A stretch of DNA of 32,000 bases, taken from Candidatus Hodarchaeota archaeon. GTDB taxonomy: Archaea; Asgardarchaeota; Heimdallarchaeia; Hodarchaeales; Hodarchaeaceae. A program made the translations under genes and the position numbers. Below the pieces are notes generated by a model. The model saw only the letters and a program-made list of their open reading frames with translations, was not told the DNA's origin and searched no databases. Numbering within the stretch: the stretch's first letter is position 1; each line of letters starts with the position of its first letter. Of this stretch, positions 7,251 through 32,000 are shown one piece after another. The stretch spans positions 52,116 through 84,115 of the forward strand of contig JAEOTM010000066.1 of assembly GCA_016839815.1 (NCBI GenBank), read 5' to 3'.

Positions 7251-7358
7251 GCTGCTGTGGCTTAGTTGGTAGAGCGACAGACTCGTAAGGATTCTCGTAT
7301 TCCATGATATCTCCGAGTTATCTGTTGGCCGTGGGTTCAAGTCCCACCAGCAGCTCCA
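7251..7358 (+). tRNA. tRNA-Thr(CGU) with ~32-nt intron; CCA encoded
   Basis: Acceptor GCTGCTG/CAGCAGC with discriminator T, then CCA. D arm GCTT-AGTTGGTA-GAGC. Anticodon stem ACAGA/TCTGT with loop C-T-CGT-A-A interrupted by an intron. The 3' intron segment CGAGT can pair with ACTCG of the anticodon loop. T arm GTGGG-TTCAAGT-CCCAC. Confidence 0.85.
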
Positions 7359-30633: not shown

Positions 30634-31545
30634 TTAAATTTTTGTGATTTCCTTCGCATTTATGAGGTCAATAAACTTATGAACCTCATTATAGGAACAA
30701 TGATCTGAATAGGGGAAGTAATGGACATCTAATCGTTTAGAGAGTAATTCGATTGCCCAACCTGTAGGTGAGATTCGCAAGGAGTTCATCAAGCGTGCTT
30801 CTGTCTGTTGATCTAATCCCGAAAGGTTTTCTACTCGTCTTCTACTCTCAACGCATATCCCAGACTCTGGATCATCAGTAAAAATGTTCCAATCTCCTCC
30901 AATTTCCTTATAAATTTCTACTTTTTTATCAGGAGCGAATATCTTAACCTTTAATGCATCACTTATCGTTTTTAACAATTTTTCCTTTCCTATCTGATAT
31001 GCAGCAATCCAAATTTATTTTTGAGGATAGTTACCTTCCGTTAGCATCAGCGCTAAGATTTCTGAGATTAAATCCTTTCGTGATGGAAATTTGTACTTGG
31101 GATTCTTACCATATGTGTAATCCACCCATAGATGATCTGCATTACTCAGAAGATCTAATTCATCTAGAATGGGAGTTCCCAAGCGAAAATCTCCTGTATA
31201 AACTTCTTTTATATGCTCTGTTGAATCAATTACAAACATTAGACTGCCTAAACAATGATTTGCGTCTATTGCGTGTACCACAAAATCATCGAAATCTAAA
31301 GATTGGTTTGTGTCCATAATCAGACATTTTTCTTTAGGAATCCTATGTAGAACTTTGAGAGCAGCAGCTGTTTCTCTAGAACAAACTATAGTTGCATCAG
31401 AGGAGGAAAGAACTGATTGTATTCCACTAGTGTGATCACTATGAGCATGAGAAAGAAAAAAGTAATCGGACGAGATAGCTAGCTTTTTTCTCTGACGAAA
31501 CGGAAATTCATCGAAATAACTATTTGCTACCTTTGAAAAAACCAT
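30634..31545 (-). pseudogene. SNM1/Pso2/Artemis-type (DRMBL, beta-CASP) DNA nuclease gene interrupted by one in-frame TAA (31015-31017)
   Basis: ORFs 31545-31015 and 30978-30634 are in the same frame. The 12 codons between them read IWIAAYQIGKEK, which continues the family motif. Family motifs present: FLSHAHSDHTSG, DANHCLGS, YTGDFR, LWVDYTYG, IGKEKLL, FPYSDHCSY. Confidence 0.7.
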
Positions 31546-31744: not shown

Positions 31745-31767
31745 AGAAAGAAAAAAATAATAAAAAG
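31745..31767 (-). terminator. Oligo-T tract downstream of the permuted 5S unit (candidate archaeal terminator)
   Basis: The minus strand reads CACUUUUUAUUAUUUUUUUCUUUC about 30-50 nt after the trailer helix. Archaeal RNA polymerase terminates at T-runs. Confidence 0.35.
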
Positions 31768-31797
31768 TGTTTGAATCTCAAAGCGCTTTTTCTCTAG

Positions 31798-31942
31798 GGG
31801 ACATTGTTTCCGGGTTCGGAATGAGACCGGGTGTGACTCAGGCCCTTTGGCCGAAGAACCTTCAGCTTTCCGATGTTCCCGTAGGCGCGAGCACAACAGT
31901 ACAGATCAGAACGGAGCCTGACTTAACTTTCGGCAATATCTC
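31798..31942 (-). other. Leader/trailer processing helix forming a bulge-helix-bulge-like motif around the permuted 5S
   Basis: The leader GAGAUAUUG (31942-31934) pairs with the trailer CAAUGUCCC (31806-31798). The inner symmetric core is UUG-CCG-AAA-GUU on the leader side against AAC-(C)CGG-AAA-CAA on the trailer side. This gives two AAA bulges on opposite strands separated by a 3-4 bp helix. Confidence 0.5.
31807..31930 (-). rRNA. Circularly permuted 5S rRNA gene (3' half, GUU cap, 5' half)
   Basis: The minus strand reads in this order:
- AAAGUUAAG
- UCAGGCU (helix II 3' strand)
- CUGAU CUGUACUG ... ACGGGAAC AUCGG (helix V and loop E)
- GCUGAAG-GUU-CUUCGGC (helix I closed as a hairpin)
- CAAAG
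- GGCCUGA (helix II 5' strand)
- CACACCCGGUCUCAUUCCGAACCCGGAA (the near-universal helix III/loop C block)
Total content is about 121 nt. The region is a GC-rich island in AT-rich DNA. Confidence 0.7.
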
Positions 31943-32000
31943 ACAGGATATTTTAGCGCGTGTTTCAGCACAAGACGTCTGTTTGCGAGATTACAAACCA

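What the first reader, a model, noticed from the sequence alone, without database searches (positions are those of the whole stretch)
31798..31942. BHB-like motif at the ends of the permuted 5S implies endonuclease cleavage and circularisation
The sequences flanking the permuted unit pair with each other. Leader 5'-GAGAUAUUG-3' pairs with trailer 5'-CAAUGUCCC-3' (7 contiguous bp, then an A-C mismatch, then 1 bp).

Immediately inside this helix the two strands read:
- leader side: UUG|CCG|AAA|GUU
- trailer side: AAC|(C)CGG|AAA|CAA

This is helix, 3-nt bulge, short central helix, 3-nt bulge on the opposite strand, helix. Each bulge lies 3' of its central-helix strand, which is the polarity of the archaeal splicing-endonuclease substrate.

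Cutting in both AAA bulges and joining the ends would create ...CCCGG-AAA-GUUAAG.... This restores the canonical 5S junction (CCCGGAAGUUAAG in other archaea) with one extra A.

Archaeal 16S/23S precursors and permuted tRNA genes are known to mature through BHB cleavage and circular intermediates. Here the product would be a circular 5S, a permuted linear 5S, or a molecule re-opened at the GUU cap.

Caveats:
- The central helix is 3 bp, or 4 with an A-C pair, rather than a clean 4 bp.
- GAUAUU can alternatively pair with an upstream AAUAUC (hairpin at 31935-31952).
Basis: inference. Interest (0 to 1): 0.88.

Follow-up and report, generated by a model that had tools for sequence, protein, structure and literature searches.

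The report
Permuted Asgard 5S rRNA gene, BHB-flanked
This Asgard (Heimdall/Hod-type) archaeon encodes its 5S ribosomal RNA "back to front", and the flanks of the gene fold into the structure that the tRNA-splicing enzymes cut and re-join, so the 5S RNA is most likely made as a closed circle. That would explain why no 5S gene could be found in these close relatives of eukaryotes.

Summary

- **Permutation.** Window 31927-31808 (minus strand) is a genuine circular permutation of 5S rRNA. A covariance model built only from canonical archaeal 5S permuted in silico scores it 96.7 bits. Rfam's 5S model fails at 20.8 bits. Helix I is closed by a GUU loop, and the gene ends lie in loop B.
- **Relatives.** The same arrangement occurs in about 35 independent Asgard contigs.
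- **Flanking helix.** The leader/trailer helix covaries strongly. It always starts exactly 0 nt (leader) and 3 nt (trailer) from an invariant CCGG/CCGG helix. In the window that helix reads CCGA/CCGG, with an A·C mismatch.
- **Predicted product.** Cutting two nucleotides 3' of that helix on both strands and joining gives exactly the canonical CCCGGAA-GUUAAG.
- **Second breakpoint.** Syntenic loci in another Asgard clade break the gene in loop C instead. They have the same flanking geometry and again give a canonical junction.
- **Weak points.** The 5' bulge is not canonical (a relaxed "hBH" motif). The central helix is invariant and competes with 5S helix III. Full-length MFE folds prefer another pairing.

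I found no published description. I class it as a new variant of a known kind (compare the permuted SRP RNA of Thermoproteus).

The parts
31987..31998 (-). Distal leader GUUUG-U-AAUCUC. It is complementary to trailer GAGAUU-CAAAC (31779-31769), forming the outermost part of the processing stem. GUUUG can alternatively form a local hairpin with CAAAC at 31985-31981. By homology with L001, L062 and L075, the promoter (TATA-like AAATATWTAAAG) lies just beyond the window end.
   Evidence: MFE fold; cognate duplex energy; sequences of relatives.
31955..31959 (-). Leader GCGCU, which pairs with trailer AGCGC (31787-31783). This is the second helix of the processing stem.
   Evidence: Relatives have GCGCC/GGCGC, ACGCC/GGCGU, GUGCU/AGCAC and a 10-bp GAGACGCGUG/CACGCGUCUC.
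31934..31942 (-). Helix h, leader strand GAGAUAUUG.
   Evidence: Covariation; RNAalifold.
31930..31933 (-). Central helix H, leader strand CCGA (CCGG in 18 of 27 relatives). It pairs with CCGG at 31813-31810; the fourth position is an A·C mismatch in the window.
31928..31929 (-). 5' bulge/loop AA (plus G31927). The predicted cut lies between A31928 and G31927.
   Evidence: Inference from the family-wide register CCGRAA|GUUAA. Not a canonical 3-nt bulge.
31808..31927 (-). Circularly permuted 5S rRNA body, 120 nt. The order is: helix II 3' strand, helices IV/V with loop E, helix I 3' strand, cap, helix I 5' strand, loop A, helix II 5' strand, helix III with loop C.
   Evidence: R1 scores 96.7 bits over the full model. 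In the family, 95.5% of cells are paired and 18 of 32 pairs show compensatory changes. The Rfam 5S model matches only a fragment.
31850..31866 (-). Helix I: GCUGAAG (31866-31860) pairs with CUUCGGC (31856-31850), closed by a GUU loop (31859-31857). The canonical 5S termini are therefore covalently joined in the gene.
   Evidence: In the family, helix I is 99.4% paired, 4 pairs show compensatory changes, and the caps are 3-5 nt and include UUCG and UACG.
31810..31813 (-). Central helix H, 3' strand CCGG. The same nucleotides form the 3' strand of 5S helix III, so the BHB and mature helix III exclude each other.
   Evidence: Rfam alignment.
31807..31809 (-). 3' bulge AAA (AAU in part of the second clade). 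The predicted cut lies between A31808 and A31807.
   Evidence: A 3-nt bulge in 27 of 27 sequences.
31798..31806 (-). Helix h, trailer strand CAAUGUCCC.
31769..31787 (-). Trailer strands of the two outer helices: AGCGC (31787-31783) and GAGAUUCAAAC (31779-31769).
31751..31766 (-). Oligo-U tracts: U5 at 31766-31762 and U7 at 31757-31751. This is a likely archaeal transcription terminator of the stand-alone unit.
   Evidence: Sequence. T-runs sit at the same place in relatives. Termination is inferred, not shown.

Best explanation
The locus is the organism's functional 5S rRNA gene, encoded as a circular permutation in a stand-alone transcription unit.

**Proposed pathway**
1. The unit consists of a promoter just beyond the window end, a leader of about 65-75 nt, a 120-nt body, a trailer of about 40 nt, and an oligo-U terminator.
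2. In the primary transcript, leader and trailer pair into a long processing stem of three helices.
3. The inner end of that stem is a relaxed bulge-helix-bulge motif: helix h (9 positions), a 3-nt trailer bulge AAA, a central helix (leader CCGA with trailer CCGG), and a leader AA(G) bulge or loop.
4. The (alpha-beta)2 tRNA-splicing endonuclease cuts two nucleotides 3' of the central helix on each strand, at A31928|G31927 and A31808|A31807.
5. RtcB joins the 2',3'-cyclic phosphate at A31808 to the 5'-OH of G31927.
6. The product is a 120-nt covalently closed 5S rRNA with the canonical loop B sequence ...CCCGGAA-GUUAAG..., in which helix I stays closed by its GUU loop.
7. After joining, the CCGG strand that was used for the central helix re-pairs as helix III.

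**Shown**
- The permutation.
- Selection for the 5S fold.
- The covarying leader-trailer stem and its fixed register.
- A second breakpoint with the same frame.

**Inferred, with my estimate of probability**
- Cleavage by EndA: about 0.75.
- Ligation: about 0.65.
- The circle rather than a re-opened form is what sits in the ribosome: about 0.5.
For: **1. Permuted but genuine 5S**
- R1 (canonical 5S permuted in silico) scores 96.7 bits on the window and 68-112 bits on 31 further Asgard loci. True canonical loci score only 40-55 bits.
- Rfam 5S passes its gathering score in 13 of 13 canonical control loci, and in none of the 31 permuted Asgard loci scanned nor the window.

**2. Purifying selection on the fold, including the capped helix I**
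- 95.5% of cells are paired and 18 of 32 pairs show compensatory changes.

**3. Helix h**
- It covaries and its register is fixed.
- RNAalifold finds h, a 3-nt bulge and H de novo.
- 27 of 27 isolated leader-trailer pairs fold that way.
- Cognate leader-trailer duplexes average -24.3 kcal/mol, against -14.1 for non-cognate pairs.

**4. The leader CCGRAA**
- It is not part of the mature RNA, yet it is nearly invariant across two deeply diverged clades in which the adjacent helix varies freely.

**5. Symmetric cuts give the canonical junction at two breakpoints**
- Type A breaks in loop B: the window and 30 other loci.
- Type B breaks in loop C: L102, L103, L105, L107.
- Types A and B occur at orthologous, syntenic loci with homologous leaders and trailers. 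This is easiest to understand if the break is erased in the product.

**6. Caps of helix I**
- They are short, sequence-variable, stable loops (GUU, UUCG, UACG and others), which does not look like a processing site.

**7. BHB splicing operates in this genome**
- The tRNA-Thr intron at 7251-7355 forms a canonical hBHBh'.

**8. Literature**
- Asgard EndA is the broad-specificity (alpha-beta)2 type with the L1 loop (PMC5829648).
- The Thermoproteus permuted SRP RNA is cleaved at a leader/trailer BHB and circularised (PMC4731332).
- The 5S gene 'could not be predicted' in closed Heimdallarchaeum genomes (PMC8813620).
Against: - No RNA-level data: cleavage, ligation and final topology are all inferred.
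- The central helix is invariant, so it carries no covariation evidence.
- Its 3' strand is also the 3' strand of 5S helix III. The BHB therefore needs helix III to be open.
- Full-length MFE folds instead pair the leader CCG(G) with the 5' strand of helix III and form an alternative UUCCG/CGGAA hairpin.
- The 5' bulge is not canonical. It is 2 nt if GUU/AAC forms, or an open loop if it does not.
- In the window the central helix has an A·C mismatch.
- Only 2 of 4 type B mini-substrates give the motif as their MFE fold.
- Genes for EndA and RtcB are not in the window, so their presence in this genome was not checked.
- Absence of a canonical 5S elsewhere in this genome could not be tested. Only 32 kb of this genome, and up to about 22 kb of each related locus, were available.
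Confidence: 0.65

Rival explanations
1. Linear permuted 5S. The processing stem directs endonucleolytic release, by EndA or another nuclease, but the ends are not joined. The mature 5S is then a linear 120-nt RNA with its 5' end at G31927 and its 3' end at A31808, nicked in loop B. This would resemble the brown-algal mitochondrial permuted 5S.
For: - The permuted order and the capped helix I are shown.
- A nick in loop B leaves every helix intact.
- Linear permuted 5S exists in organelles (PMC4267664).
- Nothing here shows ligation.
Against: - In type B loci the nick would fall in the conserved loop C.
- Close relatives at orthologous loci differ in breakpoint while their 5S bodies are about 80% identical. 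That is hard to reconcile with ends that persist in the product.
- The geometry is that of a splicing-endonuclease substrate. In archaea the products of such substrates (cyclic phosphate and 5'-OH held next to each other) are normally joined by RtcB (PMC4731332).
Confidence: 0.15
2. Circular intermediate that is re-opened. BHB cleavage and ligation give a circle, as for archaeal pre-16S and pre-23S. A second nuclease then opens the helix I cap (GUU, 31859-31857) to give a conventional linear 5S.
For: - Circular pre-16S and pre-23S are re-linearised in several archaea (PMC10515664, PMC10351888).
- Pyrococcus 23S is re-opened at H98 (PMC7758197).
Against: - The caps are only 3-5 nt, vary in sequence, and include UNCG-type tetraloops.
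- There is no conserved motif or spacer that could be excised.
- Helix I runs straight into the loop.
- Circular 23S is now reported to stay circular in the ribosomes of many archaea (PMC12918454).
Confidence: 0.1
3. Generic processing stem without EndA. The leader-trailer helices only bring the ends together for other nucleases, and the BHB-like features (repeated CCGG, AA) are leftovers of the tandem duplication that created the permutation.
For: - Leader CCGGAA equals the canonical sequence that precedes GUUAAG, as expected for a duplication relic.
- The central helix does not covary.
- MFE folds do not favour the BHB.
Against: - A neutral relic would not stay nearly invariant across two deep clades while the neighbouring helix turns over.
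- The 0-nt / 3-nt register is exact in 27 of 27 sequences.
- In type B the leader reads CYGG-AA, whereas the canonical 5S sequence preceding the type-B start (CCAUCC) is CCGG-UC. It is therefore not a simple copy, yet it keeps the same frame.
Confidence: 0.08
4. Non-functional remnant or assembly artefact, with the real canonical 5S gene elsewhere in the genome.
For: Only 32 kb of this genome was examined.
Against: - About 35 independent assemblies from different samples carry it.
- Compensatory changes occur in all variable helices.
- Promoter-like and terminator-like blocks are conserved.
- Authors of closed Heimdallarchaeum genomes could not find a 5S gene (PMC8813620).
Confidence: 0.02

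Closest known systems
Permuted SRP RNA gene of Thermoproteus tenax / T. uzoniensis (Plagens et al. 2015, PMC4731332)
   Same: - A structured, essential non-coding RNA is encoded with its 3' part ahead of its 5' part.
- Leader and trailer form a BHB.
- A heterotetrameric splicing endonuclease cleaves it, and the ends are ligated into a functional circle.
- The canonical gene was 'missing' from annotation.
   Different: - A different RNA (5S rRNA, a ribosome component) in a different lineage (Asgard rather than Thermoproteales).
- The central helix borrows a strand of a mature helix (helix III).
- Two alternative breakpoints exist among relatives.
- Here there is no experimental proof.
[quoted passage not shown]
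   Same: - A long leader-trailer processing stem with a BHB.
- EndA cleavage followed by RtcB circularisation of an rRNA.
   Different: - Those genes are collinear with the mature RNA. Here the gene itself is permuted, so ligation creates an internal loop of the mature fold.
- The literature states explicitly that 5S is not processed this way in the species studied (PMC12918454; M. maripaludis 5S uses A/U-rich motif cleavage, PMC10515664).
Circularly permuted tRNA genes (Cyanidioschyzon merolae and others; Soma 2014, PMC3978253)
   Same: - The 3' half lies upstream of the 5' half.
- The native termini are joined by a short linker.
- Maturation passes through a circular intermediate.
   Different: - The tRNA circle is re-opened at the acceptor stem by RNase P and tRNase Z.
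- No equivalent re-opening signal is visible here.
Permuted mitochondrial 5S rRNA of brown algae (Rfam mtPerm-5S; Valach et al. 2014, PMC4267664)
   Same: - A natural 5S rRNA in which helix I is replaced by a closed hairpin and the ends lie elsewhere.
   Different: - It is organellar.
- Its ends lie at the junction of the alpha and gamma domains.
- The product is linear and stays permuted.
- It has no leader/trailer BHB.
Circularly permuted 23S rRNA of Pyrococcus furiosus and Thermococcus (PMC7758197; bioRxiv 10.64898/2026.03.23.713588)
   Same: - The topology of an archaeal rRNA is changed through BHB circularisation.
   Different: - There the gene is collinear and the RNA becomes permuted.
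- Here the gene is permuted and the RNA becomes canonical or circular.

Membership tests
5S rRNA (Rfam RF00001) | Three-domain fold with helices I-V and conserved loops A, C and E, supported by covariation. | tested here: met
   R1 scores 96.7 bits over the full model. In the family alignment 95.5% of cells are paired and 18 of 32 pairs show compensatory changes.
5S rRNA (Rfam RF00001) | Score at or above the curated gathering threshold (38 bits) of the collinear model. | tested here: not met
   20.8 bits for a fragment (model positions 27-51) and 16.6 bits for a forced global match. Explained by the permutation.
5S rRNA (Rfam RF00001) | The 5' and 3' termini pair to form helix I. | tested here: not met
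   Helix I (31866-31860 with 31856-31850) is closed by a GUU loop. The gene ends lie in loop B.
Archaeal splicing-endonuclease substrate (BHB, strict hBHBh') | Central helix of exactly 4 bp. | tested here: inconclusive
   The window has CCGA/CCGG, which is 3 bp plus an A·C mismatch. 18 of 27 relatives have a 4-bp CCGG/CCGG. The helix is invariant, so there is no covariation evidence.
Archaeal splicing-endonuclease substrate (BHB, strict hBHBh') | Two 3-nt bulges on opposite strands, each 3' of its strand of the central helix. | tested here: not met
   The trailer bulge is AAA or AAU in 27 of 27 sequences with the correct polarity. The leader side is AA (2 nt) if GUU/AAC forms, or an open loop otherwise, and GUU/AAC never appears in the MFE fold. 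The strict motif is therefore not met on one side.
Relaxed BHB (hBH / HBh'; a 4-bp helix flanked by at least one 3-nt bulge, as defined in PMC4731332 and PMC5829648) | One canonical bulge, the central helix and one flanking helix; the second cleavage site may lie in a loop. | tested here: met
   h, a 3-nt bulge and H are found in 27 of 27 cofolds and by RNAalifold. Helix h covaries.
Relaxed BHB | Cleavage by the organism's EndA at the bulges. | not testable with these tools
   Needs an enzyme assay or RNA end mapping. The literature reports that Asgard archaea have the (alpha-beta)2 EndA with the L1 loop (PMC5829648).
Permuted non-coding RNA genes matured by BHB cleavage and circularisation (Thermoproteus SRP RNA type) | The 3' part is encoded upstream of the 5' part, and the native termini are joined by a short loop. 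| tested here: met
Permuted non-coding RNA genes matured by BHB cleavage and circularisation | Leader and trailer pair, and the predicted junction restores the canonical sequence. | tested here: met
   The junction CCCGGAA|GUUAAG equals that of the canonical archaeal 5S controls. The same holds for the loop C breakpoint.
Permuted non-coding RNA genes matured by BHB cleavage and circularisation | Circular RNA detected (junction reads, RNase R resistance). | not testable with these tools
   No transcriptome data were accessible.
Organellar permuted 5S (mtPerm-5S) | Ends at the junction of the alpha and gamma domains, a linear product, and an organelle genome. | tested here: not met
   The break lies in loop B (or loop C), the context is an archaeal chromosome, and cmscan gave no mtPerm-5S match.

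The most novel reading that the evidence does not exclude
The mature 5S rRNA in the ribosomes of Heimdallarchaeia/Hodarchaeales, and of at least one further Asgard clade, is a covalently closed circle with no free ends. It would be made by the tRNA-splicing machinery from permuted genes. Because the product is a circle, the gene's start point is free to drift: the loop B and loop C breakpoints at orthologous loci would be rotations of the same circle.
Probability: 0.45. Interest if true: 0.9.

Novelty: new variant of a known kind. Interest (0 to 1): 0.85.

Why it matters
- **It offers a likely explanation for a practical puzzle.** 5S rRNA genes 'could not be predicted' in closed Heimdallarchaeum genomes (PMC8813620). 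Standard annotation with the Rfam 5S model will miss them in these lineages. This also affects MIMAG 'high-quality' calls for Asgard metagenome-assembled genomes.
- **It would extend BHB-dependent circularisation to 5S.** This route is known for 16S, 23S, tRNA introns and one SRP RNA. 5S is the one rRNA for which the literature says it does not occur (PMC12918454).
- **It concerns the archaea closest to eukaryotes.** It predicts a ribosome with a circular, or at least permuted, 5S rRNA.
- **It is directly testable.** Junction RT-PCR, RNase R treatment or a ribosome structure would settle it.
- **The two breakpoints give a rare natural experiment.** They show how permuted RNA genes arise and move.

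Tried and rejected
- **Exact-protein look-ups failed.** Look-ups of window proteins, and of the 100%-identical MutS-like protein, found no contig. The window's own contig could therefore not be extended, and the promoter is inferred from relatives.
- **The genome-contig scan returned mostly controls.** It returned 83 loci. All bacterial and non-Asgard archaeal ones proved to be ordinary 5S genes with a chance GTTAAG upstream. I used them as controls, not as evidence.
- **Full-length thermodynamic folding does not favour the BHB.** Folds of the window and L072 precursors reproduce the three leader-trailer helices. However, they pair the leader CCG(G) with the 5' strand of helix III. The z-scores are weak (-0.9 and -2.1). 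Single-sequence energy therefore cannot decide the inner motif.
- **MAFFT misaligns helix I between the two clades (A2).** I used a model-guided alignment (A3) for the body instead.
Its upstream arm is a sequence-conserved block (AAUAAC) that does not change when the other arm does.
- **Two 5S copies in MAG YT1_021 are not evidence of multi-copy.** L031 and L075 overlap by exactly 127 nt, the assembler's k, so they may be a single locus.
- **The second clade could not be placed taxonomically.** Spt5 homologues and syntenic MAGs carry conflicting submitter labels: Hod-, Hermod-, Thor-, Loki- and Promethearchaeota.
- **Literature searches found no prior description.** I searched for permuted or circular 5S in archaea and Asgard. 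The library does not cover subscription-only papers.
Full report
**1. What is at the coordinates**

The feature lies on the minus strand. Read 5' to 3', the RNA is:

...GAGAUAUUG (31942-31934) CCGA (31933-31930) AA (31929-31928) | GUUAAGUCAGGCUC...GCUGAAG-GUU-CUUCGGC...GGGCCUGAGUCACACCCGGUCUCAUUCCGAAC CCGG AA (to 31808) | A (31807) CAAUGUCCC (31806-31798)...

- For random 9-mer pairs from this window, that much pairing at one fixed register has P = 0.0014.
- This is suggestive for a single sequence but not decisive. The decisive evidence comes from comparison with relatives.

**2. The unit is a real 5S rRNA, circularly permuted**

- Rfam finds no 5S in the window at its gathering score.
- In permissive mode Rfam finds only model positions 27-51 (helix III and loop C) at 31832-31808, scoring 20.8 bits.
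- I took 12 canonical archaeal 5S genes that the genome scan had fetched by chance. Each scores 56-98 bits with Rfam.
- I cut each after CGGAA, moved the 3' part to the front, joined the old termini with arbitrary tetraloops, aligned them, and checked the structure (88% of cells paired, 21 of 32 pairs compensatory).
- From this I built model R1, which contains no Asgard sequence.
- R1 matches window 31808-31927(-) over its whole length at 96.7 bits, E 1e-24. True canonical genes reach only 40-55 bits.
- Helix I (GCUGAAG/CUUCGGC) is closed by a GUU loop at 31859-31857. The canonical 5S termini therefore do not exist in the gene.

**3. Organism and relatives**

- Window proteins are archaeal: Cdc48, NAT10/TmcA-type acetyltransferase, aCPSF-like beta-CASP, and a MutS-related ATPase.
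- The MutS-related protein is 80% identical to proteins of Heimdallarchaeota B3_Heim and of 'Hodarchaeales' MAGs.
- The syntenic B3_Heim locus (L001) has the same permuted unit at the same place.
- A pattern scan of one genome per GTDB species returned 83 loci. In every bacterial and non-Asgard archaeal hit, CGGAA is followed by G[UC][UGC]AA, which marks an ordinary 5S.
- The 14 hits that continue with ACA... come from 13 assemblies. All are permuted, and all but two unnamed 'archaeon' MAGs are labelled Heimdall-, Hod-, Hermod- or Promethearchaeota.
- A metagenome scan added 17 loci, all permuted (R1 scores 68-103 bits; none reaches the Rfam 5S threshold).
- These loci form two groups. One is like the window. 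The other is richer in A+T (GUUAAAC...), and its neighbouring genes (a long Spt5, a longin-domain protein, Arf-family GTPases) place it in Asgard. Its class is unresolved, because related MAGs carry conflicting labels.
- Across 23 distinct bodies aligned to R1, 95.5% of cells pair and 18 of 32 pairs show compensatory changes. Helix I is 99.4% paired, with 4 compensatory pairs.
- This is a functional RNA under selection for the 5S fold with a capped helix I. It is not a pseudogene.

**4. The flanks**

I aligned 27 distinct precursors with 24-nt flanks (A2).

| Element | Leader | Trailer |
|---|---|---|
| Helix h | 9 positions, ends directly at H | starts after the 3-nt bulge |
| Central helix H | CCG[G/A] | CCGG (= 3' strand of helix III) |
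| Bulge | A[A/G], then the body | AA[A/U] |

- There is no indel anywhere in this frame.
- The inner 5 bp of h pair in 133 of 135 cells. Column 16:154, for example, reads CG 10, GC 9, UA 6, AU 2.
- The covariation score is 0.363 against 0.124 ± 0.015 in shuffles (0 of 500 reach it).
- 89% of cells are paired, against 18-52% when the partner is slid by 1-3 columns.
- RNAalifold, given no structure, predicts h (5 bp), a 3-nt trailer bulge and CCG/CGG.
- Isolated leader-trailer pairs cofold into h, bulge(3), H in 27 of 27 cases.
- Beyond h, every lineage has one or two further leader-trailer helices:
  - window: GCGCU/AGCGC and GUUUG.AAUCUC/GAGAUUCAAAC;
  - other lineages: GCGCC/GGCGC, ACGCC/GGCGU, a 10-bp helix in L015, and a 12-bp UUAACCACAUAU/AUAUGUGGUUAA in the second clade.
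- Cognate leader-trailer duplexes average -24.3 kcal/mol, against -14.1 ± 4.3 for non-cognate pairs.
- Relatives show a TATA-like block (ATATTTAAAG followed by CTCTTGAA) about 85-95 nt upstream of the body, and T-runs after the trailer. This indicates a stand-alone unit. The window ends just short of the promoter.

**5. Is it a BHB?**

- *Polarity.* It is right. In the window's own intron-containing tRNA-Thr(CGU) at 7251-7355, the fold is: anticodon stem, H (CUCG/CGAG), bulges UAA and UUA, then an intron helix. This is a textbook hBHBh'.
- *3' side of the 5S motif.* It is canonical: a 4-bp H in most relatives, a 3-nt bulge, then a covarying helix.
- *5' side.* It is not canonical. With a 4-bp H the leader bulge is AA (2 nt) if GUU/AAC forms, and that small helix never appears in MFE folds. 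The motif is therefore the relaxed 'hBH' kind.
- *Published definitions.* They accept a 4-bp helix flanked by at least one 3-nt bulge (PMC4731332). Asgard archaea are reported to have the (alpha-beta)2 EndA with the L1 loop, the type that cleaves relaxed motifs (PMC5829648).
- *The window's own variant.* The window belongs to the 9 of 27 sequences with CCGA (A·C at the fourth pair). G and A alternate among sub-lineages with different h sequences, so the change is tolerated.

*The repeated CCGGAA.* The leader CCGGAA equals the last six nucleotides of the body. Because CCGG is a palindrome, this direct repeat is also self-complementary, and that is what makes H possible. It has two consequences:
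- Any pair of cuts at the same offset from H gives the same product.
- With the canonical offset (after the second bulge nucleotide), the product is ...CCCGGAA-GUUAAG.... This is exactly the sequence of the canonical archaeal controls.

**6. A second breakpoint**

- I fetched loci through Spt5 homologues of the second clade. They share the gene order Peptidase_C25 - 5S - 180-aa ORF ... eIF1A - Spt5.
- L102, L103, L105 and L107 carry a 5S that starts in loop C and ends at ...ACCCGGUC:
  - leader: ...AGCG-C[U/C]GG-AA|CCAUCCGAACCCGGAAGUUAAAC...
  - trailer: ...ACCCGG-UC|A-CGCU...AUGUGGUUAU
- Rotated back to the type A order, these units are 79-82% identical to the type A body of L096, excluding L102, which carries a ~30-nt insertion.
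- Here H uses the 5' strand of helix III, and the trailer bulge is UCA. Symmetric cuts give GGUC-CCAUCCGAAC, the canonical loop C.
- The leaders and trailers are homologous to those of type A loci in the same clade. The body has therefore been rotated by about 16 nt inside the same frame.
- A break in conserved loop C, and breakpoints that differ between close relatives, are most simply explained if the break is erased by ligation.

**7. Weak points**

- H is invariant, so it carries no covariation signal.
- H and mature helix III exclude each other.
- Full-length MFE folds pair the leader CCG(G) with the other strand of helix III and form a UUCCG/CGGAA hairpin.
- Only 2 of 4 type B mini-substrates give the motif as their MFE fold.
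- No RNA data, no EndA or RtcB genes in the window, and no whole-genome check for a canonical 5S were available.

**8. Mechanism and alternatives**

- Best explanation: EndA cleaves at A31928|G31927 and A31808|A31807, RtcB ligates, and the product is a 120-nt circle.
- The caps of helix I are 3-5 nt, variable, and include UUCG and UACG. This argues against re-opening there.
- My estimates are 0.75 for EndA cleavage, 0.65 for ligation, and about 0.5 for the circle being the ribosomal form.
- The rivals are a linear nicked product, a re-opened circle, a non-EndA processing stem, and a relic. Each is listed separately with the result that would refute it.

**9. Comparison with what is known, and novelty**

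- The closest analogue is the permuted SRP RNA of Thermoproteus (PMC4731332).
- Related cases are circular pre-16S and pre-23S, permuted tRNA genes, and the linear permuted mitochondrial 5S of brown algae (PMC4267664).
- Recent literature states that archaeal 5S, unlike 16S and 23S, is not matured through circularisation (PMC12918454). In M. maripaludis it is trimmed at A/U-rich motifs (PMC10515664).
- The authors of closed Heimdallarchaeum genomes report that 5S 'could not be predicted' (PMC8813620).
- Other Asgard classes (Borr- and Jordarchaeia MAGs) do have detectable 5S genes (PMC9723677). The permutation is therefore lineage-specific.
- Seven full-text searches found no description of a permuted or circular archaeal 5S. 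The library is not exhaustive.
- I class the finding as a new variant of a known kind, with high interest.

Noticed in passing
L103:1200-1320, L102:4068-4218, L105:2876-2995, L107:4241-4360: A second permutation of the 5S gene, broken in loop C (GGUC|CCAUCC). It sits at loci syntenic with type A loci of the same Asgard clade. The leaders and trailers are homologous and the CYGG-AA / CCGG-UCA frame is the same, so the body looks 'rotated' by about 16 nt.
   Followed up: partly
L104:704-853: A type A permuted 5S in a MAG labelled Lokiarchaeota, with an insertion of about 29-31 nt in loop C (CCGAAAAACCAGCUAAUUUCGAGAUGGUUCGGGAAC). The insertion can form CCGA/UCGG with bulges AAA and GAA plus ACCA/UGGU. 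It could be a BHB intron inside the 5S or an expansion segment.
   Followed up: no
L102:4123-4155: An insertion of about 30 nt (GAATTACAGACCATAACGGTCTGAAAGTAGAG) in the helix V / loop D region of a type B permuted 5S. Its sister loci lack it.
   Followed up: no
window 7251-7355 (+): A tRNA-Thr(CGU) gene with a 32-nt intron at position 37/38 that folds into a canonical hBHBh' (H CUCG/CGAG, bulges UAA and UUA). Rfam found it; ARAGORN missed it.
   Followed up: partly
window 30634-31545 (-): The metallo-beta-lactamase-fold gene next to the 5S is split into two ORFs: 176 aa (Lactamase_B_2) and 114 aa (DRMBL). The B3_Heim orthologue is a single 303-aa gene (L001 9017-9928). This may be a frameshift, a pseudogene or a sequencing error.
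   Followed up: no
L102:4042-4056, L103:1175-1189, L105:2851-2865, L107:4217-4231; also L086 and L100 leaders: A leader hairpin GUAGC-NNUUC-GCUAC lies just upstream of helix h. It covaries (AUAGC/GCUAU, AAGC/GCUU) and resembles 5S helix I of the same clade (GUAGC-UUCG-GCUAC). It may be a remnant of the upstream copy of an ancestral tandem duplication.
   Followed up: no
L001:8543-8565, and the same position in L027, L032, L038, L060, L062, L072, L073, L075, L081: A conserved block (A)ATATTTAAAG-NNTCTTGAA lies about 85-95 nt upstream of the permuted 5S body. It is presumably a TATA box plus a conserved downstream promoter element. It falls just outside the window.
   Followed up: no
L031:1-127 and L075:3048-3174 (MAG YT1_021): Two contigs end and begin in the permuted 5S and overlap by exactly 127 nt, the assembler's k-mer size. 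L019 also breaks 18 nt upstream of the body. The 5S may be a branch point in the assembly graph, from more than one copy or from strain variation.
   Followed up: no
window 31998-31981 (-) and 31779-31769 (-): The distal leader can form either a local hairpin (GUUUG...CAAAC, conserved across sub-lineages) or, through its loop AAUCUC, pair with trailer GAGAUU. Which form is used is unknown.
   Followed up: no
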